DNA from: Escherichia phage PSa2
DNA: 64,000 nucleotides
Reading direction: 5' to 3' (one strand)
Sequence record: OL770310
The position numbers and the translations under genes were made by a program. Under the pieces are notes generated by a model. The model ran no database searches, was not told where the DNA came from, and saw only the letters and a program-made list of their open reading frames with translations. Position 1 is the first letter of the stretch, and each line of letters opens with the position of its first letter. Positions 31,684-64,000 of the stretch are shown here, piece after piece.

Positions 31684-32661
31684 ATGAGAATACTATTTAG
31701 TGCTGATCATCATATCAAACTAGGACAAGATAAAGTTCCAAAGGAATGGCAGAAGCGTCGCTTCCTGATGCTAGGAGAACGGTTAAATGACATATTCCAT
31801 AATCATAACTGTGATCTGCATATTGCTGGTGGTGATATTCTTGATGTTGCCGACCCATCGTCGGAAGAAATAGAACTTCTTGAGCAGTTCATGTCAATAC
31901 TTGATCATCCAGGCAAGATCTTCACTGGGAACCATGAAATGTTAACTAAAACTATTTCATGCCTGTATCATTATGCAGGGGTTATTAACAAAGTAACAAA
32001 CGGAAATTGGGAAGTCATTACTAAACCATATCGTTCTCCTGAATTTGATATTATCCCTTACGATGAAATTCACAAACCAAAGTGGAAACCCTCTGAATCA
32101 AAATTATGTTTCACGCATGTTCGTGGTGAAATCCCTCCACATGTAAAACCAGAGATTGATCTAACGAGGTATAACTGTTACGACACTGTAATTGCTGGCG
32201 ATTTACATTCTTATACTAATAGTCAAACTGTTGGTTCTACTAGACTTCTTTATCCAGGATCTCCATTAACTACATCGTTCCATAGAGAACGCACAAAAGG
32301 TACAAATGGTTGTTTTATCATTGATACCGACACATTAAAAGTAGAATGGATTGAACTTGGTGACTTACCACAACTGATTCGTAAAACAATAGGAGTCGGT
32401 GAGGAAATGGAGCCTAGTGACTATGACCGTGTAATTTATGAAGTCACTGGTGACGTCGTTCAGTTAAAGTCTATTAAAGATTCCGATCTCCTAGATAAAA
32501 AGATTAACCATCGAGTTACTAAAGATGCTAAGTTAAATCTTGTCGATCTTGATATGTTAGGCGAGCTTGAGCTTTACTTCCGTGAAGTTGAAAAGCTGTC
32601 TCAAGGCGACATTGATAGAATCTTAGCTAGAGCTGCTAAATATGTCAAAGATTACAATTAA
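31684..32661 (+). CDS. SbcD/Mre11-like nuclease (calcineurin-like phosphoesterase)
   Basis: N-terminal MRILFSADHH and downstream GNHE phosphoesterase motifs; followed by an SbcC-like ATPase. Confidence 0.8.
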   Translation: MRILFSADHHIKLGQDKVPKEWQKRRFLMLGERLNDIFHNHNCDLHIAGGDILDVADPSSEEIELLEQFMSILDHPGKIFTGNHEMLTKTISCLYHYAGVINKVTNGNWEVITKPYRSPEFDIIPYDEIHKPKWKPSESKLCFTHVRGEIPPHVKPEIDLTRYNCYDTVIAGDLHSYTNSQTVGSTRLLYPGSPLTTSFHRERTKGTNGCFIIDTDTLKVEWIELGDLPQLIRKTIGVGEEMEPSDYDRVIYEVTGDVVQLKSIKDSDLLDKKINHRVTKDAKLNLVDLDMLGELELYFREVEKLSQGDIDRILARAAKYVKDYN

Positions 32662-34480
32662 GACACTAAAATTCAGCAACGTTATGTCTTACGGTAAGGA
32701 TATCGTAATTCATTTCGATAAGAATCCAGTTACTCAGTTAATTGGAGGAAATGGTCTAGGGAAGTCCACTATTGCTACTGTTATTGAGGAATTGTTTTAT
32801 AACAAGAACTCACGTGGTATCAAGAAGGACGCCCTATTCTCTTGGGGTTCTCCGAAGAAAGAGTATGATATGCACGCTTACTTCTCGAAAGATGAAGATG
32901 AGTATGAATTGCATAAAGTAGTTAAATCAACTGCTAAGGTTACGCTGATTAAGAACGGGGAAGATATCAGTGGGCACACAGCAACTCAAACGTACAAGAT
33001 GATTGAAGAGATTATGGGTGGTGACTTCCAAACATTCACTAAACTGATCTATCAATCTGTTGGTTCCAATCTAGACTTCCTCAAAGCAACTGATGCAACA
33101 CGTAAAGCTTTTCTTGTTAATCTGTTCAATCAGGAACAGTATAAAGAGATGTCAGAAACTATTAAGGCTGATCGTAAAGAAGTGGCAAGTACGTTAAGTA
33201 ACTTGCAAGGCCAGATGGCCGTAATTACGAAGATCCTCAATGGAAAAGGTAATCTCGGAAGTTTACAAGAACCAGTTGAAGTTCCAGAGTTTGATGAAGA
33301 ACCGTTAGCACAAGAACTTACTGAATCGAAAATTAAGGCGGCATTAGCCAAGTCACAAGAGGCTAATATTACTAAACTCCGTAATTTGGACAAAGCTGTA
33401 CAAGTTGCCGAACAATCTTTCGAGCCTTTCAAAAATTTCCCTGCGCCCACTGACCAATCTGAAGAGATCTCAAGTGTTACGCGTGACCTAACGATCGTTA
33501 CCTCACGTGCGGGAGAAGTCAAGAAACGTTATCAGAAGTTCAAGCAAGAGGCTTCAAATACTGAATGTCCTACTTGTGGCACTCACCTTGATACAACTGC
33601 TGCTCAAAAAGCCATGGATATGGCTAGAACAGAATATGATCCTCTGTTTAAAGAGAAACAATCTCTTGAAGCTACATTGGAGCAGTTGAAGAAAGAACAA
33701 GTCGAGTACACTGCGTATACTAGAGCTAAGGATGCTTTGGATAAGGCAGTAGCAGCTAGAGACGAATTCAAAAATTCAATGAGTGATGCTTCTTTTGAAG
33801 AACTCAATGTGCAAATCCTACAGGTGCAAATCCGACAATTAGAACAGGAAATCGCAGATGGACGTTCTAAAGTTGCAATTGCCAAAGAACATAATGCAAA
33901 TGTCGAATTAGCCAATGCAAAGTATAAAGCGAAACTAGAACAGATTGAGAAAGCTGAGGCAGAAATGTCTGAGATAACGTCCAAACTGGAAGGAGTATCA
34001 GAAGCTGTTGCTGATCTTGATATTCTGATCGCTGCATTGAAAAATCTGGTAGGATATAAACTAGAGCATAGTGTGAAAGTATTTGAGGAATTAATTAATA
34101 AATATCTTTCTATTATGACTGGTGGTAAGTTCGCACTTGGATTTGAACTTGATGAAACTAAATTACAAGTAGTAATCTTCAATGATGGAAATCGTACTAG
34201 TATGGAGAACTGCTCCACTGGTCAGCAAAGTAGAATTAATTTAGCAACTCTGTTAGCTATTCGAATGCTGTTAACATCTATCAGCAAAGTTAATATTAAT
34301 CTTCTGTTCCTTGACGAAGTTATTAGCTTTATTGATACGAAAGGACTTGATACTCTCGTTGAATTATTAAATGAGGAAGATAGTCTAAACTCTATCATTG
34401 TTTCTCATGGGCATACGCATCCATTAGCCCATAAGATTACTGTCAAAAAAGATGCAGAAGGATTTTCCTACTTAGAATAA
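32642..34480 (+). CDS. SbcC/Rad50-like ATPase
   Basis: Walker A GGNGLGKST, central coiled coil with CPTCG zinc hook, signature STGQQSRINL, Walker B LLFLDEV. Confidence 0.8.
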   Translation: MSKITIKTLKFSNVMSYGKDIVIHFDKNPVTQLIGGNGLGKSTIATVIEELFYNKNSRGIKKDALFSWGSPKKEYDMHAYFSKDEDEYELHKVVKSTAKVTLIKNGEDISGHTATQTYKMIEEIMGGDFQTFTKLIYQSVGSNLDFLKATDATRKAFLVNLFNQEQYKEMSETIKADRKEVASTLSNLQGQMAVITKILNGKGNLGSLQEPVEVPEFDEEPLAQELTESKIKAALAKSQEANITKLRNLDKAVQVAEQSFEPFKNFPAPTDQSEEISSVTRDLTIVTSRAGEVKKRYQKFKQEASNTECPTCGTHLDTTAAQKAMDMARTEYDPLFKEKQSLEATLEQLKKEQVEYTAYTRAKDALDKAVAARDEFKNSMSDASFEELNVQILQVQIRQLEQEIADGRSKVAIAKEHNANVELANAKYKAKLEQIEKAEAEMSEITSKLEGVSEAVADLDILIAALKNLVGYKLEHSVKVFEELINKYLSIMTGGKFALGFELDETKLQVVIFNDGNRTSMENCSTGQQSRINLATLLAIRMLLTSISKVNINLLFLDEVISFIDTKGLDTLVELLNEEDSLNSIIVSHGHTHPLAHKITVKKDAEGFSYLE

Positions 34481-56618: not shown

Positions 56619-57101
56619 TTAAGCCTCCGGCGCAGGGTTGATAGTTGTTACGCACTCATTAGAAGTAATGGAAGTAGATTTACTATCCGTTACAACAACT
56701 TTGTAAGTACCAGCATCTTCTGCAGCAGCTGTAGCTTTGTTGAAATTAGAGCCAGTAACACCACTAAGTGGAGAACCGTCTTTAGTCCAAGCATAAGTAT
56801 ATGGTGCAGTACCACCAGTAACTGTTACGCCCAGATTAATTGCTGCACCAGTATCAACAGCTAGAGTTTTAGCCAGATTCTTCGTGAAAGCTATAGCCGG
56901 AACAACCGGAGCAGTAACTTCGTATGCTTCTTTGAACTTATTCCAAACCTTGCGGTTGGTATGTGCAGTGGTCATTCCAAACTCTTTACGTAGAGTAGCA
57001 TAGTTTGGAACGAACTTGTGTGCTGCAACCGTAGCAAAGAAGATATGAGATTCTGGCAGCTTTTCACCAAAAATGGCCTTTAGACCATCATAATCAATCA
57101 T
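56619..57101 (-). CDS. capsid decoration protein with Ig-like domain
   Basis: C-terminal Ig-like segment TVTGGTAPYTYAWTKDGSPLSGV...GTYKVVVTD. Confidence 0.55.
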   Translation of the reverse strand: MIDYDGLKAIFGEKLPESHIFFATVAAHKFVPNYATLRKEFGMTTAHTNRKVWNKFKEAYEVTAPVVPAIAFTKNLAKTLAVDTGAAINLGVTVTGGTAPYTYAWTKDGSPLSGVTGSNFNKATAAAEDAGTYKVVVTDSKSTSITSNECVTTINPAPEA

Positions 57102-58315
57102 TCTTTATCCCCATCGGCAGTGCCTTGCGGTCTACCACCTTCTTGACCAGATACACCTGTTGCAGAACCAGCAACGTTAGCAGGAATACGAATCTTATTC
57201 ATCTGCTCATCATCTAAAGGTTCAAGGTTAAGCTCTTCACGAGCCTCGTTACCAGTCATGATACCGTTATTAACCAAAGAGGTTAAATGTTTAGCCTCAG
57301 CTTCTTTATCTGGCGTCAGTGCAGCTACTTCCTTAGTATTAGGAGTAACCTTGTAGCCAAAGAAGAAAGTAAGAGAACTAGTCAGCTTGTTCAGCATAGG
57401 AATGATAGTCATGTAATAGAACAATTCGATGTTTGGTCGAATGTTAGCATTATTACCACCATCAAGTAACACTTGCGGAACACCAAAGGCAAGACAGATG
57501 GATTTATTAAATCCTTCGATATCTTCCTTGAAGTCTAGATCTTTAAAAGAGGATATTTGGGAGTACGGTTTTGCTTTCATACCACCATCTAGAATCAGGA
57601 CAGTAGACTGACCCGTACTAGGATTATAATCGAGTTGTAATTCTTCTTGTTTACGCTCACGCAATTTCTTGTTCAGGATTTCATCCGTCTCAAGAATAAG
57701 ACCAATCACTGTGCCGTTATCGAGGAACTTCTCTTTAAAGTTAAGCATTTTAGAACGCTTCTCAAGAGAGTCAATAACTGTAGCAACACGAGATTGTCCA
57801 GAAATTTGGGAGTTTGTGCCACACACGTAACTGTTATCCTTTATAAAGATAATCTCATCTACGCGATAGTCTATCTGGTTATTAAATATAAATTTTTTGA
57901 TAAACTTATTGGCATCTGCCTCTACTTGCATTAGTGCAGCAGGGACATGGTAAAGTGCTGTGCCATCCCAATAGATGTATGCACAACCCTCAAAAAGTAG
58001 GTCAGTGACTACAAGTCTACGGAATGTGCTTATATCCATGAATGGATTAGGTCGTACATTTAAGAGAGTGTCTAGAGTCTTTGCCTTGACGCCGTTAGCG
58101 TACGTGACAATATTATATTTATCTCCGACAGTATAAGAACACTCCGCCGCACTATCTATAACCATGTTAGCAGTTCGGTTGAGAATCTCAATCTTACTGT
58201 AGGCTTGTCCAGTGGTAAATGGCTTACGGTTAGTGCGATGACTAACTGGTTCCATGTCTCTTATAATACGTTGACCCGGATTTAGCTTTTCAGTAATCCA
58301 GCTTTTTAAACCCAT
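57098..58315 (-). CDS. portal protein
   Basis: 405 aa ORF between terminase/HNH and protease. Confidence 0.7.
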   Translation of the reverse strand: MGLKSWITEKLNPGQRIIRDMEPVSHRTNRKPFTTGQAYSKIEILNRTANMVIDSAAECSYTVGDKYNIVTYANGVKAKTLDTLLNVRPNPFMDISTFRRLVVTDLLFEGCAYIYWDGTALYHVPAALMQVEADANKFIKKFIFNNQIDYRVDEIIFIKDNSYVCGTNSQISGQSRVATVIDSLEKRSKMLNFKEKFLDNGTVIGLILETDEILNKKLRERKQEELQLDYNPSTGQSTVLILDGGMKAKPYSQISSFKDLDFKEDIEGFNKSICLAFGVPQVLLDGGNNANIRPNIELFYYMTIIPMLNKLTSSLTFFFGYKVTPNTKEVAALTPDKEAEAKHLTSLVNNGIMTGNEAREELNLEPLDDEQMNKIRIPANVAGSATGVSGQEGGRPQGTADGDKE

Positions 58316-58839
58316 TATAAGAACCTTGCGAATCCTGATTTAGTTTCAGTCTTGACTTGTGTCTTTTCTTGAGGATTCTGTAGCTTTTCCTTTTGTTTAA
58401 GAACCCATGCCTTCTGCTTATTAGCAGAGAAAAGGGGAGGTTCTTTAGTGTACACCTTATGTAATAGTTGGTGATGGTGGACACAAAGGGTAACAGTGTC
58501 GTCTACTAGCTCATGCCTATATCTTTCATAGAATGCCGTCCTATTTGAGAGGACTGTTTCTTCGTTAGTGAAATCCAACTGGAGTTCTTTAGCAAATTTT
58601 TTAACTAGTAGAGACACTGTATGGTAATGATGAAGCTCTAATTCTTCACCACAACCACAGATTTCGCAGCGATCGGCTTTTTTATATTGACTTTTTATAC
58701 CGTCTCGCATGAGTGATATAGCATCACGTTTATATTTTACATTTCCTGCCACAGTATTCTCCTCAACTGTATGAATATAGTATACATAATCATGTCGAAT
58801 TTGTAAAGGGGATTTTAAAATGCAGGAATGGGATACCAA
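58315..58839 (-). CDS. HNH endonuclease-like protein
   Basis: CEICGCGEELELHHYH...N...LCVHHHQLLH: Cys/His pattern of the HNH motif. Confidence 0.6.
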   Translation of the reverse strand: MVSHSCILKSPLQIRHDYVYYIHTVEENTVAGNVKYKRDAISLMRDGIKSQYKKADRCEICGCGEELELHHYHTVSLLVKKFAKELQLDFTNEETVLSNRTAFYERYRHELVDDTVTLCVHHHQLLHKVYTKEPPLFSANKQKAWVLKQKEKLQNPQEKTQVKTETKSGFARFL

Positions 58840-58866
58840 CTGAGTAGTATCCCATCCTATACTTAT

Positions 58867-60183
58867 TTATTTCCCACGGGAAATTGAGTAAATTCCATAA
58901 CGCAGTGCGTCACAAAGGTGAGAGTTCGCATCATGACGTGGTTTTTCACGTGATAATTTCTCTTCGCCTTCCTGGAAGTCCCACTTGTAGTTCGCTAGGG
59001 CGTGGATCAATGAGGTACATGAAGCATCTACGATGATCTTGCCTTGCTGGAACAGTGCTTGCAGACATGCCAAACCATCTAGGACAGATTTCTTAGCAGG
59101 TGCAGAAGCGATTTCATGTTCATATGCTAAGTCCTGACGGAACTGAGCAGCAGCGGAGTCTACAAATATACGATCAACATTATAACGATCTATGCAGTGT
59201 TGGATATAAGCAGCGTGTTGAGCTGTAGTCTTTTCAGCTTGCTGATATTCTTCCAGTACGTAATAAACATCTTCATCGTAGTGATACTTAATAGTAAGAA
59301 CTGCTGTAGGATCACGATAACCAACGTCGATACCAAGTAATGTTTCGAATGCCTCATCATCTTTAAAGAAGTGACGCATACCTTTAAGGTCTTTAACATG
59401 CTCGATAGCATTGAAGGTATCAAAGATCTGACCTTCGAATACAGAGAAGTCAGCCTCATATTCTTGACGGAAGTAGTTTTTACTAACAGTACGACGAGCT
59501 TCCTCGATATCGTTTAGGTCAGCACGTGGGTTATCACGATACGTACCATGAATAGATACCCAGTTAGGTAACGTTTCATTAAATCCTTTTTCGTAGAACT
59601 CTTTGAACCAGTTACCACCACGAGGTGTAGAAATAAATAGAGCTTTAGAGTTTGGTTTATCTAGGGTAGGACGTAACTGAATATCGAAAGCTGCACCACC
59701 AACATCGGAAATAGCTGCTTCGTCAAAAATGATGAAGTCATAGGAACGACCAACCGCGGAGTCAGCCTGGGCCGCAGAAGCTAGTTTAAAGAGAGAACCA
59801 TTTGCTAGTTCAATCTCTTTATCTTTTGCGTTCTCACGTTCAGTCTGTAATCCATACTTCTTAATAAGACCACGAATCTGTGACCAACCTATGTTAGCCA
59901 GTGAGTAGTTAGGTGCAACTACTAGCACCTTCACATTGGGTTCCAGAAGTTTTAAGAACCCAAGAGTATATGCGATGAACGACTTACCTACACGACGTGA
60001 TACACATGCGGTCACGAAACGGTGTCTTGGGTCTTCCAATGCATTAATAATTGCAATTTGAGGGGCATTAGGTGTAATTCCCTCTTGTGCTAGGATGCTA
60101 GAGACTGGTAGACGAAAGAATCGTTTGTCAATACCAAAGTCAATAACATCTGTGGTGTTAATATAGTCTCTAGAGACTTTCAT
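58867..60183 (-). CDS. terminase large subunit
   Basis: ATPase Walker A-like ACVSRRVGKS and Walker B DFIIFDEAA; C-terminal nuclease-size region; 438 aa. Confidence 0.85.
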   Translation of the reverse strand: MKVSRDYINTTDVIDFGIDKRFFRLPVSSILAQEGITPNAPQIAIINALEDPRHRFVTACVSRRVGKSFIAYTLGFLKLLEPNVKVLVVAPNYSLANIGWSQIRGLIKKYGLQTERENAKDKEIELANGSLFKLASAAQADSAVGRSYDFIIFDEAAISDVGGAAFDIQLRPTLDKPNSKALFISTPRGGNWFKEFYEKGFNETLPNWVSIHGTYRDNPRADLNDIEEARRTVSKNYFRQEYEADFSVFEGQIFDTFNAIEHVKDLKGMRHFFKDDEAFETLLGIDVGYRDPTAVLTIKYHYDEDVYYVLEEYQQAEKTTAQHAAYIQHCIDRYNVDRIFVDSAAAQFRQDLAYEHEIASAPAKKSVLDGLACLQALFQQGKIIVDASCTSLIHALANYKWDFQEGEEKLSREKPRHDANSHLCDALRYGIYSISRGK

Positions 60184-60665
60184 TATCTCTTACCTCCTCC
60201 TGCTAGAGCAGTAATAAGATTCATATAGTTTTCGTCACCACTTCCAGCAATAATATTATTCTGAATGTTAGTCTGGTTAGCCGGAGTACGGGCTGCTGCC
60301 TTCACTTTCTCCAGTTCTACCATCATTTTCATTTCTTCCATTTTCATCTTGTGCGCCTTCCAGAGAATATCCATGATATCCTGGTCAGAGCCCATGCCAG
60401 TTTCTTCGAGTTCTTCCAACTTGCGCTTGATAACTTCATCAAGAACCCCAAACAAACGGTCGCGATTACGGAAGCCACTTTCCATAAAGATATCGTTAAG
60501 ATAGTTTTTAACTTCCCCACGATTCATTATATCACGAAATGCAATCTCGGACATCCCAAGACTACGAGCAGCGGCAGGAACATCACTACCACACTGTAAA
60601 TAGGCTTCAATAACATCCATGCCTTCGGGAGACATGAGATCAGGAACTAATACATCATTTGCCAT
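60183..60665 (-). CDS. putative terminase small subunit / DNA-binding protein
   Basis: 160 aa with HTH-like [17 protein letters not shown]; ATGA-coupled to the large subunit. Confidence 0.5.
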
Positions 60666-60675
60666 ATATCCTCCT

Positions 60676-62457
60676 TTAGGTTAGGCGTTGAACTGTTACA
60701 CGTAGTCTTGGTAAGAAGATAGCAGCTGCTTCGGCAGCATGGATAATAACGCCTAACTCAACGTTACCATTACCAAGGTTTTTTACTGTATAAATATACC
60801 CATTTCTACGAAAAGCCATCTCATCAGGTCTACTAGCCCACGTTTGGGTATAGCTATATGAAGTTGTACTGTGATATGGTACTAGATAGCCAGGTGGCAG
60901 AGTAAGAATCTGATGAAATACACCATCACCAGCTGTATAACTTTGTTGACGTCTACCTTGTACCTGCCAAGCACTACCCCCATAAGTACGCACAGGCATT
61001 CCAGCAGTATTAAGATTACCCATAATAACTTCAGTAGTTAATATAACAGTAGAGTGAGCATTTGGTAATCCCAACCAAACTGTGGCCAAAGGTGTGTAGA
61101 AGTCACCAGCACCAGGGTAGGATGGAGTTATATCATCCCCAACATAAGTACTCGCAACGTTGCCTGGGAATAATCTAAGTGGTACGGTACTAGGACTCCA
61201 TACAGGGCCATGCTCATTACCTATAGAGTTGGTATTAGTATCTACATACCACTGTTTACCAACACCAAATTTATAAAGGCTAATTTGAGAAGCAGCACCC
61301 CCATAGTTAACAGGAGACCACAAACCCCCATTACTAGAGCCGATAAATTCACATCGTGCAGTATTATCACCAAAAACTCCGGTATACGCGGTATTATTAC
61401 CAACATACTCCATATCAGGGCGATAACCTAAGTTTCCAAAAGCATTCTGGTTAATAAATTTATAGCCTGAGTTGGGTAAGCTAACACCTTTAATAGTAAA
61501 GTTAGATGGAGATATCAGGATATCTGAACCAGTAAATGGATTACCAGAAATCCCCATACTACCATTAGAATAGCGTAGATTTAGCACATACCAAATAACT
61601 TTAGTAGGTGTAACATTATACCAGTCTTGCACATATACCTTTCTAGCTGACTGAGCAGCCATATTAGAAGTAGAACCTCTACAAACATATATTTTTTCTG
61701 GATATGCAGGAGATTGGTAAAGAACGTTTACGTTATCTGGTAGTACACCTTTTTTACCGGCAAAGCCACGAATATTGGAACTACAAACGTAAAACCAATC
61801 ATGACCTCTACCAGCAGACCCGATAGGCGCTTGCCAGTTAGGCTCCCAATAGTCTGCATTACCACCATCTATAGGAACTGTAGATACACCCGTTGGAAAG
61901 CCCATTAATCTCCAGGCTCTGGAAATAGCTTCACCAGCAGAAACACCACCAGGTCTAAAGATCTGGAAACCGGAAGATTGTAGCAAAGTACCGCCAGTTC
62001 CTTGTCTAGCAATAGATTCCTCATGACCTAGGCTACCATTATAAATATAGGTACCATGAGCTAAACTATCCCCGATTGCAAAGGCAGATGTTATTGCCAA
62101 TTCAGCACCCGCACGTGGTTGGTCTTCAAAGAATGTTAAAAACTGGCCAACCTGAGATTGTGTACCATTAAGGAAACCCCTATGAGTACCATTTATCTCA
62201 ATAGCAGTTAATATAACTCTACCAGGATCATTGGATTTAATGTTTATAATATCCCAAGGCATCTGAGTAACAAAGTACCCATTACCTGCATCACCTAGGG
62301 CAGCCTCATAAGTCCCATCAACTAGGACGAAGGGCATATCTGAGTGGAAGATACTATTAGTATTTGGAGAGTAGTGCTGATTTATATCACCACCATTAGC
62401 AGCGTTTAGAGATAATACAGTTTTACCATCACTAAATTTTCCTGCGAAAAAACTCAT
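60676..62457 (-). CDS. receptor-binding protein (pb5-like), receptor unknown
   Basis: 593 aa Gly/Asn/Tyr-rich protein heading the late operon, divergent from a lipoprotein gene as for oad/llp in T5-like phages (recalled). Confidence 0.55.
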
Positions 62458-62540: not shown

Positions 62541-62807
62541 ATGAAAAAGTTACTAGCCATCGTAGTTGCAGCAGTAGTGTTGACGGGTTGTGTACCGGCT
62601 CCCGAGCCATTCTGTAAGGCATACGTGAAGTCTTATGGTCATGTTGGTGAAGAACACTATGCTTTAGATATTCGAGAAGCACGTACTGTAGGCTACCGAT
62701 TCCCTAAAACTCAGTTACGCACTAAGTTTGGGTGGTGGGATTTGTCACAGTTTGATCTCAAATATGGCGATTGCAAATTTAAACTAGAACAATCTGGTCA
62801 CTTGTAA
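62541..62807 (+). CDS. llp: lipoprotein, Llp-like (candidate receptor-blocking superinfection-exclusion protein)
   Basis: Signal peptide with lipobox MKKLLAIVVAAVVLTGC; divergent from the RBP gene. Confidence 0.6.
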   Translation: MKKLLAIVVAAVVLTGCVPAPEPFCKAYVKSYGHVGEEHYALDIREARTVGYRFPKTQLRTKFGWWDLSQFDLKYGDCKFKLEQSGHL

Positions 62808-63567: not shown

Positions 63568-63805
63568 CTTTGTAGCTATCTTCATTATCGGAGTGCTTGC
63601 TGGGATCTTCGGAACACTCGGGGCGATTAATAAGCATCGTGAATATATTGCGGGAGTATCGCGGGAGCTTTCGGAAAGGGAGCGGAAGTTTGCGGAGAAA
63701 CGTGCGGAGTTTGAGCGAGAGTGGTCGGAGGGATCTCGGGCGTCGCGGCGGAGATTTCGTATGTCAGAATCGGGAGATAAGCCAGTAGATAGGAGAAGTT
63801 CATGA
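63560..63805 (+). CDS. small single-pass membrane protein with Arg/Glu-rich tail
   Basis: TM FSFVAIFIIGVLAGIFGTLGAI then ERERKFAEKRAEFEREW..RRRF, encoded by a purine/GC-rich GCGGAG-like repeat. Confidence 0.45.
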   Translation: MFSFVAIFIIGVLAGIFGTLGAINKHREYIAGVSRELSERERKFAEKRAEFEREWSEGSRASRRRFRMSESGDKPVDRRSS

Positions 63806-64000
63806 TATTTAAGAAAATCCCTGATGAAATAGCTGGTAGTTTTTCATATGATCCAGATACGGGGCGATTCCTGCCTATTATAGGGTATACTAAGGAAAGT
63901 GAAGGTTATCTCATATATCGTCACCCACAGTTCGGAGAGTTTAGAGTGCATCGCCTAGCTTGGTGGTGCATCTACGGAGAAGATCCCGGAGAATCTCTCC
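63802..64000 (+). CDS. HNH-family homing-endonuclease-like protein, partial (runs off right edge)
   Basis: Manual translation MIFKKIPDEIAGSFSYDPDTGRFLPIIGYTKESEGYLIYRH...FRVHRLAWWCIYGEDPG resembles the HNH_3 N-terminal pattern (GYL..., VHRL...). Confidence 0.45.
   Translation, partial: MIFKKIPDEIAGSFSYDPDTGRFLPIIGYTKESEGYLIYRHPQFGEFRVHRLAWWCIYGEDPGESL

What the first reader, a model, noticed from the sequence alone, without database searches (positions are those of the whole stretch)
58315..58839. HNH endonuclease genes in and beside the packaging module
An HNH-motif protein lies between portal and terminase genes, and a second HNH-family gene begins at 63802. HNH proteins next to terminase can be required cofactors for packaging; free-standing ones in T5-like phages are often mobile homing endonucleases marking insertion hot spots.
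Basis: partly seen in the sequence, partly recalled or inferred. Interest (0 to 1): 0.35.

Follow-up and report, generated by a model that had tools for sequence, protein, structure and literature searches.

The report
T5 SciA nickase plus homing HNH
The gene between terminase and portal is this phage's copy of the already characterised T5 SciA nicking endonuclease, a core gene and not a mobile one, while the gene starting at 63802 is an ordinary, sporadically present HNH homing endonuclease.

Summary
Both observations hold. The window is the late region of a T5-like Salmonella/Escherichia phage (Epseptimavirus). The ORF at 58315..58839 (-) is real but over-extended. The gene most likely starts at GTG 58752, giving 145 aa.

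This protein is 81% identical to T5 gene T5.153. Its alignment profile hits PDB 9QGV/9QGX at E=3e-66. Its AlphaFold model matches 9qgv_A, 'SciA(H42Q) endonuclease from Escherichia phage T5 in complex with 10 bp DNA (GCGC...)', at TM 0.98. Homologues carry Pfam PF26848 (Phage_T5_Nicking_endo). It is a divergent HNH that classic Pfam HNH models miss.

It is a core gene: 899 phage records carry it against 907 that carry the T5-type large terminase. It always sits between TerL and portal, and its stop overlaps the portal start. So it is not a homing endonuclease, and nothing shows it is a required packaging cofactor.

The polymorphism next to it comes from a different endonuclease cassette (T5.154 type). 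That cassette sits between the sciA promoter and sciA in some relatives and is absent here.

The gene at 63802 (cut by the window end) is an HNH_3/AP2 endonuclease. Close copies occur in only 26 records, and an unrelated ORF replaces it in relatives, so it looks like a true mobile element.

Verdict: correct observation, already known biology, low interest.

The parts
58315..58752 (-). sciA: 145-aa SciA-type HNH nicking endonuclease (GTG start, TAA stop overlapping the portal ATG by 1 nt)
   Evidence: 81% identity to T5.153. Profile hit to PDB 9QGV/9QGX at E=3e-66. AF2 model (pLDDT 86.6) matches 9qgv_A at TM 0.98, rmsd 0.7. C29, C32, H41, H42, C90, H93, H94 and H98 are invariant in 40 homologues. 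Homologues carry PF26848.
58753..58839 (-). non-coding 5' extension of the mechanical ORF (not part of the gene)
   Evidence: No homologue has this extension in the alignment. The region holds regulatory-looking elements conserved in relatives.
58759..58764 (-). ribosome binding site GAGGAG, 6 nt before the GTG
   Evidence: Read from the sequence. An RBS is annotated at the same place in phage Sepoy.
58779..58807 (-). promoter-like site TTTACA-17-TATACT upstream of sciA
   Evidence: 10 of 12 consensus match. Conserved in T5, DT571/2, HildyBeyeler and JLBYU43. A 'putative promoter' is annotated at the same distance from TerL in T5 AY692264. Function is inferred, not shown.
58826..58857 (-). terminator-like hairpin just after the TerL stop codon
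   Evidence: 13-pair stem followed by a T-rich tail. Conserved in the four relatives aligned. Function is inferred.
58765..58771 (-). empty insertion site: the point after '...TATACTATATTCAT' where relatives carry the T5.154-type endonuclease cassette or its remnants
   Evidence: Alignment of the spacers. Span differences of +146, +404 and +720 nt appear in a spread sample of records.
58867..60183 (-). terL, large terminase subunit
   Evidence: Pfam Terminase_6N 1.2e-14 and Terminase_6C 8e-13; PHROG 2.
60183..60665 (-). terS, small terminase subunit, annotated in T5 records as 'probable sciB protein'
   Evidence: PHROG 3802 at 2.2e-90. 95% identical to T5.156. sciB annotation in AY587007 and AY692264 and in DT571/2.
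57098..58315 (-). portal gene; its ATG overlaps the sciA stop codon (TAATG)
   Evidence: Pfam Phage_portal 2e-51; sequence.
33440..33447 (-). predicted SciA target: homologue of the T5 major nick at 64.8% of the genome, GTGG/GCGCAGGG on the - strand inside the D13 (SbcC-like) gene
   Evidence: T5 annotates a 'major DNA single-chain interruption' at the aligned position. The site is kept in a Klebsiella Sugarlandvirus at 58% local protein identity, and GCGC is kept in phiR2-01. Nicking in this phage is inferred.
63802..64000 (+). 5' part (66 codons) of a free-standing HNH_3/AP2 homing endonuclease gene, cut by the window end
   Evidence: PHROG 99. 94% identical to the atrejo 157-aa protein with Pfam HNH_3 and AP2. 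Homology to SuperGirl breaks exactly at the ATG. Copies at >=80% identity occur in only 26 records.

Best explanation
The gene at 58315..58752 (-) is the orthologue of bacteriophage T5 SciA. SciA is a small HNH (beta-beta-alpha-metal) endonuclease with a CCCH zinc site. In T5 it binds GCGC-containing sites and cuts one strand (consensus Pu/GCGC), producing the fixed single-chain interruptions of T5-type virion DNA. Here it is a core late gene. It has its own promoter-like site downstream of terL, is translationally coupled to the portal gene, and lies next to terS (annotated as sciB). Its likely target inside this window is GTGG/GCGCAGGG on the minus strand at 33440-33447. Shown here: orthology, fold, conserved catalytic and zinc residues, universal synteny, and conservation of one T5 nick site. 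Inferred: that this phage's DNA is actually nicked there, and that nicking happens late, around packaging. The gene starting at 63802 is unrelated: a sporadic, free-standing HNH_3/AP2 homing endonuclease inserted between the last late-region gene and the terminal-repeat genes.
For: 81% identity to T5.153 over all 145 aa. The profile of 40 homologues hits only PDB 9QGV/9QGX 'Nicking endonuclease' (E=3e-66). The AF2 model (pLDDT 86.6) matches 9qgv_A/9qgx_A, 'SciA(H42Q/H42A) endonuclease from Escherichia phage T5 in complex with 10 bp DNA (GCGC sequence)', at TM 0.97-0.98. H42, the residue mutated in those entries, and C29, C32, C90, H93, H94 and H98 are invariant. All 92 homologues carry PF26848, named Phage_T5_Nicking_endo. 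GenBank and UniRef names include 'nicking endonuclease' and 'sciA'. SciA is found in 899 phage records and TerL in 907, with identical genus counts. The order TerS-TerL-SciA-portal, or SciA-portal, is kept in distant metagenomic contigs. The T5 major nick site is conserved at 33440-33447. For the second gene: domains; clean replacement; sporadic distribution, many distant paralogues.
Against: No experiment on this phage exists, and no paper describing the 9QGV/9QGX work was found in the searchable library. The biochemical claim therefore rests on PDB titles, database names and older genetics cited second-hand (PMC3517423). The motif RGCGCRGG is not enriched in the window (2 found, 1.95 expected). 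One copy lies on the other strand (56629-56636), so the short motif alone cannot define the sites. Classic Pfam and NCBIfam HNH models do not hit the protein.
Confidence: 0.9

Rival explanations
1. The protein is an HK97 gp74-type HNH cofactor that the terminase needs to cut concatemers. On this reading nicking is secondary.
For: It is HNH-type and sits between terL and an HK97-family portal (PF04860). It is universally linked to these genes. terS is annotated as sciB, 'involved in formation of single-chain interruptions', which ties nicking genetics to the terminase.
Against: Viable T5 mutants lacking nicks are reported (PMC3517423). The solved structures are with GCGC nick-site DNA, not with genome ends. 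There is no hit to PF01844, where I recall gp74-like proteins being filed; that filing was not checked here. TerL carries its own RNaseH-like nuclease domain (Terminase_6C).
Confidence: 0.07
2. The gene at 58315 is a free-standing mobile homing endonuclease marking an insertion hot spot.
For: It has its own promoter-like site after a terminator-like hairpin. The adjacent spacer is polymorphic among relatives.
Against: It is present in about 99% of records that have the T5-type TerL, always at the same place, down to 47% identity in Vibrio phages. It overlaps the portal start. The polymorphism is caused by a different gene, the T5.154 type, inserted upstream of it.
Confidence: 0.02
3. The 63802 gene is a domesticated or inactive leftover rather than an active homing endonuclease.
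For: Only 66 codons are visible in the window. The AP2 hit of the full-length relative is below Pfam's cut-off. No activity data exist.
Against: The full-length 157-aa ORF is intact at 88-100% identity in 26 records, and its insertion borders are exact. The HNH_3 hit is above the cut-off.
Confidence: 0.25

Closest known systems
Bacteriophage T5 SciA nicking endonuclease (T5.153 / T5p149 / ORF142; PDB 9QGV, 9QGX; Pfam PF26848 Phage_T5_Nicking_endo)
   Same: 81% identical over the same 145 aa. Same fold (TM 0.98). Same invariant catalytic His and CCCH residues. Same position between terL and portal. The T5 major nick site in D13 is conserved.
   Different: GTG instead of ATG start. 28 substitutions. 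The T5.154 endonuclease gene that lies immediately upstream in T5 is absent here.
HK97 gp74-type HNH proteins of phage packaging modules (my own recollection of Kala et al. 2014; not retrieved here)
   Same: Small HNH protein encoded next to terminase and an HK97-family portal.
   Different: No PF01844 hit. A helical insertion of about 43 aa splits the two beta strands of the motif. Its known substrate is internal GCGC nick sites, not genome ends. Nick-less mutants are viable.
Nicking HNH homing endonucleases such as I-HmuI and I-BasI (PMC3017599)
   Same: HNH active site that cuts one strand at a specific sequence.
   Different: Those are mobile, intron-encoded or free-standing, and sporadic. 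SciA is a fixed core gene with several targets spread over its own genome.
T5-family free-standing HNH endonucleases (F-Tfl / heg genes; Pfam HNH_3 with AP2), for the gene at 63802
   Same: HNH_3 plus an AP2-like DNA-binding domain, about 157 aa. Sporadic, with several paralogues per genome. About 45% identical to a gene annotated 'hegI: putative H-N-H endonuclease P-TflIX'.
   Different: It is a distinct lineage at this particular site, between the T5.162 homologue and dmp. Only the first 66 codons lie in the window.
CBASS Cap5 HNH effectors (best non-self PDB fold match)
   Same: Shared HNH core, but only weakly (Foldseek probability 0.3).
   Different: Unrelated architecture and biology. 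The match is not significant.

Membership tests
T5 SciA / Pfam PF26848 Phage_T5_Nicking_endo | Full-length sequence similarity to T5 SciA | tested here: met
   81% identity over 145/145 aa. Profile against PDB gives E=3e-66. The exact protein sits in a cluster named 'nicking endonuclease'. PF26848 is precomputed on all 92 homologues and named. PF26848 is not in the local Pfam copy, so it was not scored directly.
T5 SciA / Pfam PF26848 Phage_T5_Nicking_endo | Same three-dimensional fold as the solved SciA structure | tested here: met
   The AF2 model matches 9qgv_A at TMt 0.98, rmsd 0.7 A over 119 columns.
T5 SciA / Pfam PF26848 Phage_T5_Nicking_endo | Catalytic His42 and zinc ligands (C29, C32, C90, H93) present | tested here: met
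   These residues are invariant in 40 homologues, including the window protein. H42 is the residue mutated in 9QGV/9QGX.
T5 SciA / Pfam PF26848 Phage_T5_Nicking_endo | Gene located between terL and portal of a T5-like phage | tested here: met
T5 SciA / Pfam PF26848 Phage_T5_Nicking_endo | Strand-specific nicking at Pu/GCGC sites in virion DNA | not testable with these tools
   Only the presence of the conserved T5 nick-site sequence at 33440-33447 (-) could be shown.
Canonical HNH (Pfam PF01844 and relatives) | Significant hit to a Pfam HNH model | tested here: not met
   No hit at E<=1 for the 174-aa form. The best hit for the 145-aa form is AI2M-like_HNH at E=4.6. Only PHROG 8048 'HNH endonuclease' hits, at 2.2e-5. 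Distant family members give sub-threshold PF01844 hits to either half of the motif.
Canonical HNH (Pfam PF01844 and relatives) | Beta-beta-alpha-metal core with a His general base and a flanking zinc site | tested here: met
   The model has strand 38-42 (with H41 H42), strand 86-90 and helix 91-101 (with H93, H94, H98). Beyond the family, the weak BFVD fold hits are mostly proteins named HNH/HNHc, at probability 0.9-0.98.
Canonical HNH (Pfam PF01844 and relatives) | Conserved middle Asn of the H-N-H motif | tested here: not met
   The position five residues before C90 varies (D/E/H/Q/A/Y) in the alignment. A helical insertion of about 43 aa separates the two strands.
HK97 gp74-type packaging HNH | Adjacent to terminase and an HK97-family portal | tested here: met
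HK97 gp74-type packaging HNH | Needed for, or stimulates, terminase cutting of genome ends | not testable with these tools
   Second-hand literature says nick-less T5 mutants are viable. No data exist for this phage.
Free-standing homing endonuclease (gene at 58315) | Sporadic presence or absence among close relatives | tested here: not met
   899 records carry it against 907 with TerL, and 896 of the 899 are full length.
Free-standing HNH_3/AP2 homing endonuclease (gene at 63802) | HNH_3 nuclease domain plus a DNA-binding module | tested here: inconclusive
   Shown only on the full-length orthologue of phage atrejo: HNH_3 at 6.5e-7 (above cut-off), AP2 at 1.9e-6 (28.5 bits, below the 33.3 cut-off). 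The window holds only residues 1-66, which are 94% identical.
Free-standing HNH_3/AP2 homing endonuclease (gene at 63802) | Sporadic distribution with exact insertion borders | tested here: met
   Of 220 records matching the flank, only a few continue into the gene. 26 records carry it at >=80% identity. The borders lie exactly at the ATG and just after the stop, and SuperGirl has an unrelated 71-aa ORF instead.
Free-standing HNH_3/AP2 homing endonuclease (gene at 63802) | Cleaves the allele lacking it and spreads by repair | not testable with these tools
   Needs mixed-infection or in vitro cleavage assays.

The most novel reading that the evidence does not exclude
SciA may be a fixed third component of the Demerecviridae packaging machine rather than an independent enzyme. 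On this reading the nicks are made on DNA while the TerS(SciB)-TerL-portal complex is translocating it. That would explain the universal terS-terL-sciA-portal linkage, the translational coupling to portal, the strand specificity, and why a short palindromic core (GCGC) is cut on one strand only.
Probability: 0.25. Interest if true: 0.5.

Novelty: already known. Interest (0 to 1): 0.15.

Why it matters
It corrects the label. This is not a mobile element or a generic 'HNH next to terminase' but the enzyme behind a classic oddity of T5 biology, the fixed single-strand nicks, whose purpose is still unknown. For annotation, many GenBank records call it 'hypothetical protein' or use a wrong start (174 or 131 aa). 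The analysis also separates three unrelated endonuclease stories in one 6-kb stretch. One is a core nickase (sciA). One is an empty site for a T5orf172-type cassette. One is a truly sporadic HNH_3/AP2 gene. No new biology is implied for this window.

Tried and rejected
- **Profile searches.** Pfam-A and NCBIfam scans of the protein gave no usable hit, so classification had to come from the PDB profile search and the fold search.
- **Literature.** Searches for sciA, T5 nickase and 9QGV found no primary paper. Only second-hand statements turned up, in PMC3517423.
- **Nick motif as a statistical signal.** RGCGCRGG occurs twice against 1.95 expected. GCGC is about half the mono- or dinucleotide expectation (54 against about 100) but close to the Markov-2 expectation of 63. 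Neither gives a usable enrichment or avoidance argument.
- **The 71-aa ORF.** I tested whether the ORF that replaces the 63802 gene in SuperGirl, Sepoy and JNwz02 is a decayed copy of it. There is no similarity (E=7.3), so it is a different cassette.
- **The 174-aa TTG start.** Rejected, because the extension covers the conserved hairpin and promoter and no homologue shares it.
- **Nick site in distant relatives.** The D13 nick site could not be aligned in the Proteus and Vibrio relatives, so its conservation is shown only for Markadamsvirinae and a Sugarlandvirus.

Full report
**What the window is.** The region from 51 to 64 kb is the head, packaging and receptor-binding part of a T5-like phage. 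On the minus strand it reads, from 60665 down to 51325: small terminase, large terminase, the gene in question, portal, decoration protein, prohead protease, major capsid protein, head-tail and neck proteins, and the tail tube gene. A 4-kb stretch around the finding is 97-98.5% identical to Salmonella and Escherichia phages of the genus Epseptimavirus. It matches 460 phage records in all.

**Check of the observation.**
- The ORF at 58315..58839 (-) exists and carries C-x2-C ... HH ... C-x2-HH-x3-H.
- Its upper limit is only the first TTG after a stop codon. A GAGGAG ribosome binding site lies 6 nt before a GTG at 58752.
- All 40 aligned homologues begin at the equivalent 'MA.N'.
- T5, JNwz02, Sepoy, DT571/2, HildyBeyeler and JLBYU43 all annotate 438 nt.
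- Database clusters hold three annotated lengths (174, 145 and 131 aa), so the start is often mis-called.
- The stop codon overlaps the portal ATG (TAATG).
- The second gene starts at ATG 63802, overlapping the previous stop (ATGA), and runs off the window.

**What the first gene is.**
- Local Pfam-A and NCBIfam give nothing. PHROGs gives family 3497 (unknown function, 7e-68) and a weak HNH family hit (2.2e-5).
- The protein is 81% identical to T5.153.
- A profile of 40 homologues finds exactly two distinct PDB sequences, 9QGV and 9QGX, 'Nicking endonuclease', at E=3e-66.
- An AlphaFold model (mean pLDDT 86.6) matches them at TM 0.97-0.98.
- The entry titles read 'SciA(H42Q)/(H42A) endonuclease from Escherichia phage T5 in complex with 10 bp DNA (GCGC sequence ...)', released 2026-03-25.
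- All 92 homologues found in the large protein collection carry Pfam PF26848. Another tool names that family Phage_T5_Nicking_endo. It is newer than the local Pfam copy.
- GenBank and UniRef names agree: 'nicking endonuclease', 'nicking site-specific endonuclease', and 'sciA ... (T5p149, ORF142)'.

The gene is therefore the SciA orthologue.

**Is it HNH?** Yes, but a divergent one.
- The model has one strand carrying H41-H42, then about 43 residues of helices, then a second strand (VTLC) and a helix carrying H93, H94 and H98.
- C29, C32, H41, H42, C90, H93, H94 and H98 are invariant. The usual middle Asn position is not conserved.
- Outside the family, the weak fold matches are mostly proteins named HNH or HNHc, plus Cap5 HNH effectors.
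- Distant family members give sub-threshold PF01844 hits to one half of the motif or the other.
- An exhaustive profile search of 1.84 billion representatives finds only 165 proteins at E<=0.001, so the family is narrow.

**Core gene or mobile?** It is a core gene.
- tblastn finds SciA in 899 phage records, 896 of them full length. The T5-type TerL (E<=1e-80) is in 907.
- Genus counts match: Vibrio 356 and 356, Escherichia 129 and 129, Klebsiella 81 and 81, Proteus 10 and 10, Aeromonas 7 and 7, Salmonella 267 and 271.
- In the Vibrio phages sampled, the gene sits about 100 nt after TerL.
- Two distant metagenomic relatives keep the order TerS-TerL-SciA-portal, or SciA overlapping portal.

This excludes a homing endonuclease.

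**The flanking polymorphism.** The 114-nt spacer between terL and sciA holds a terminator-like hairpin (58857-58826) and a promoter-like TTTACA-17-TATACT (58807-58779). Both are conserved in T5, DT571/2, HildyBeyeler and JLBYU43. T5 AY692264 annotates a putative promoter at the same offset.

Directly after the -10 region the relatives diverge:
- T5 and JLBYU43 carry a cassette of about 720 nt (T5.154, 'endonuclease' or 'GIY-YIG nuclease family').
- DT571/2 carries an internally deleted remnant (+404 nt).
- HildyBeyeler carries a short remnant (+146 nt).
- This window has none.

In an evenly spaced sample of 60 of the 450 matching records, about 8 have the full cassette and about 7 have shorter extras. 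T5.154 hits Pfam T5orf172, MUG113, CapR and a treble-clef zinc finger. So an insertion hot spot exists, but its occupant is another gene, and the site is empty here.

**How SciA most likely works here.**
- The T5 record annotates major single-chain interruptions on the minus strand, matched to the consensus 5'-N-Pu/pGCGC-N. The sequences are GGTGG/GCGCGGGC and GAGA/GCGCAGGG.
- PMC3517423 quotes the consensus R/GCGCRGG. It notes that the motif also occurs on the un-nicked strand, that sciA and sciB were mapped to the late region, that viable nick-less mutants exist, and that the role of the nicks is unknown.
- The 64.8% site lies in gene D13. The window's D13 homologue (32642..34480, +) has GTGG/GCGCAGGG on the minus strand at 33440-33447, in a 95%-identical context.
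- The site is kept in a Klebsiella Sugarlandvirus with only 58% local protein identity. GCGC is kept in phiR2-01 although the amino acids differ there. It could not be found in Proteus or Vibrio relatives.
- terS here is 95% identical to T5.156, which two T5 records annotate as 'probable sciB protein'.

The steps from 'orthologue with a conserved site' to 'this DNA is nicked at 33443, late in infection' are inference.

**The second gene.**
- The window's 66 residues are 94% identical to the start of a 157-aa protein of phage atrejo. At the DNA level they are almost identical to phage 1-23.
- The full-length protein hits Pfam HNH_3 (6.5e-7) and AP2 (1.9e-6, below cut-off).
- Of 220 records that match the upstream flank, nearly all stop matching at 63805.
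- SuperGirl, Sepoy and JNwz02 carry an unrelated 71-aa ORF at that spot. Homology resumes right after the stop codon.
- Copies at >=80% identity occur in 26 records. Paralogues below 60% identity occur in 643 records of many phage groups, often several per genome.

This is the pattern of a free-standing homing endonuclease.

**Verdict.** The first gene is an already characterised, structurally solved, family-defining enzyme. Interest is low.

Noticed in passing
window 58765-58866 (-), compared with L001 5785-6618, L010, L011, L012: The T5.154-type endonuclease cassette of relatives is inserted exactly between the conserved promoter-like site and the sciA ribosome binding site, so it would be transcribed from the sciA promoter. 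DT571/2 and HildyBeyeler carry decayed remnants, and this window has a clean empty site.
   Followed up: yes
protein P0249 (335 aa): A distant family member fuses CapR and DUF4379 zinc-finger modules, the same N-terminal modules as T5.154, to a C-terminal SciA-like HNH domain (residues 220-330). The SciA nuclease core therefore also occurs in modular proteins that look like homing endonucleases.
   Followed up: partly
window 56629-56636 (+): A second exact match to the T5 nick consensus (GGCGCAGG) lies on the opposite strand, at the protease/decoration-protein gene junction. T5 nicks are on one strand only, so something beyond this 8-mer must set specificity.
   Followed up: no
window, whole: GCGC occurs 54 times against about 100 expected from base or dinucleotide composition, but 63 expected from trinucleotides. 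This gives no clear avoidance of the nickase core site.
   Followed up: partly
window 60183-60665 (-): The small terminase subunit is the gene that T5 records AY587007 and AY692264 annotate as sciB, 'involved in formation of single-chain interruptions'. This links nicking genetics to the packaging enzyme.
   Followed up: partly
database records: T5-like sequences appear under unlikely names: 'Listeria phage LM 4-14-1', Campylobacter phages, many Salmonella and Shigella 'chromosomal' proteins, and a 'PhoH family protein, partial [Enterococcus faecalis]' (P0092) carrying half a SciA domain. These are probably contamination or chimeric assemblies.
   Followed up: no
window 60676-62457 (-) and 62541-62807 (+): The receptor-binding protein (593 aa) and the divergently transcribed lipoprotein (88 aa, annotated in relatives as Cor / receptor-blocking protein) follow the terminase genes as in T5. 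The receptor-binding protein is shorter than T5 pb5 (1782 nt against 1923 nt).
   Followed up: no
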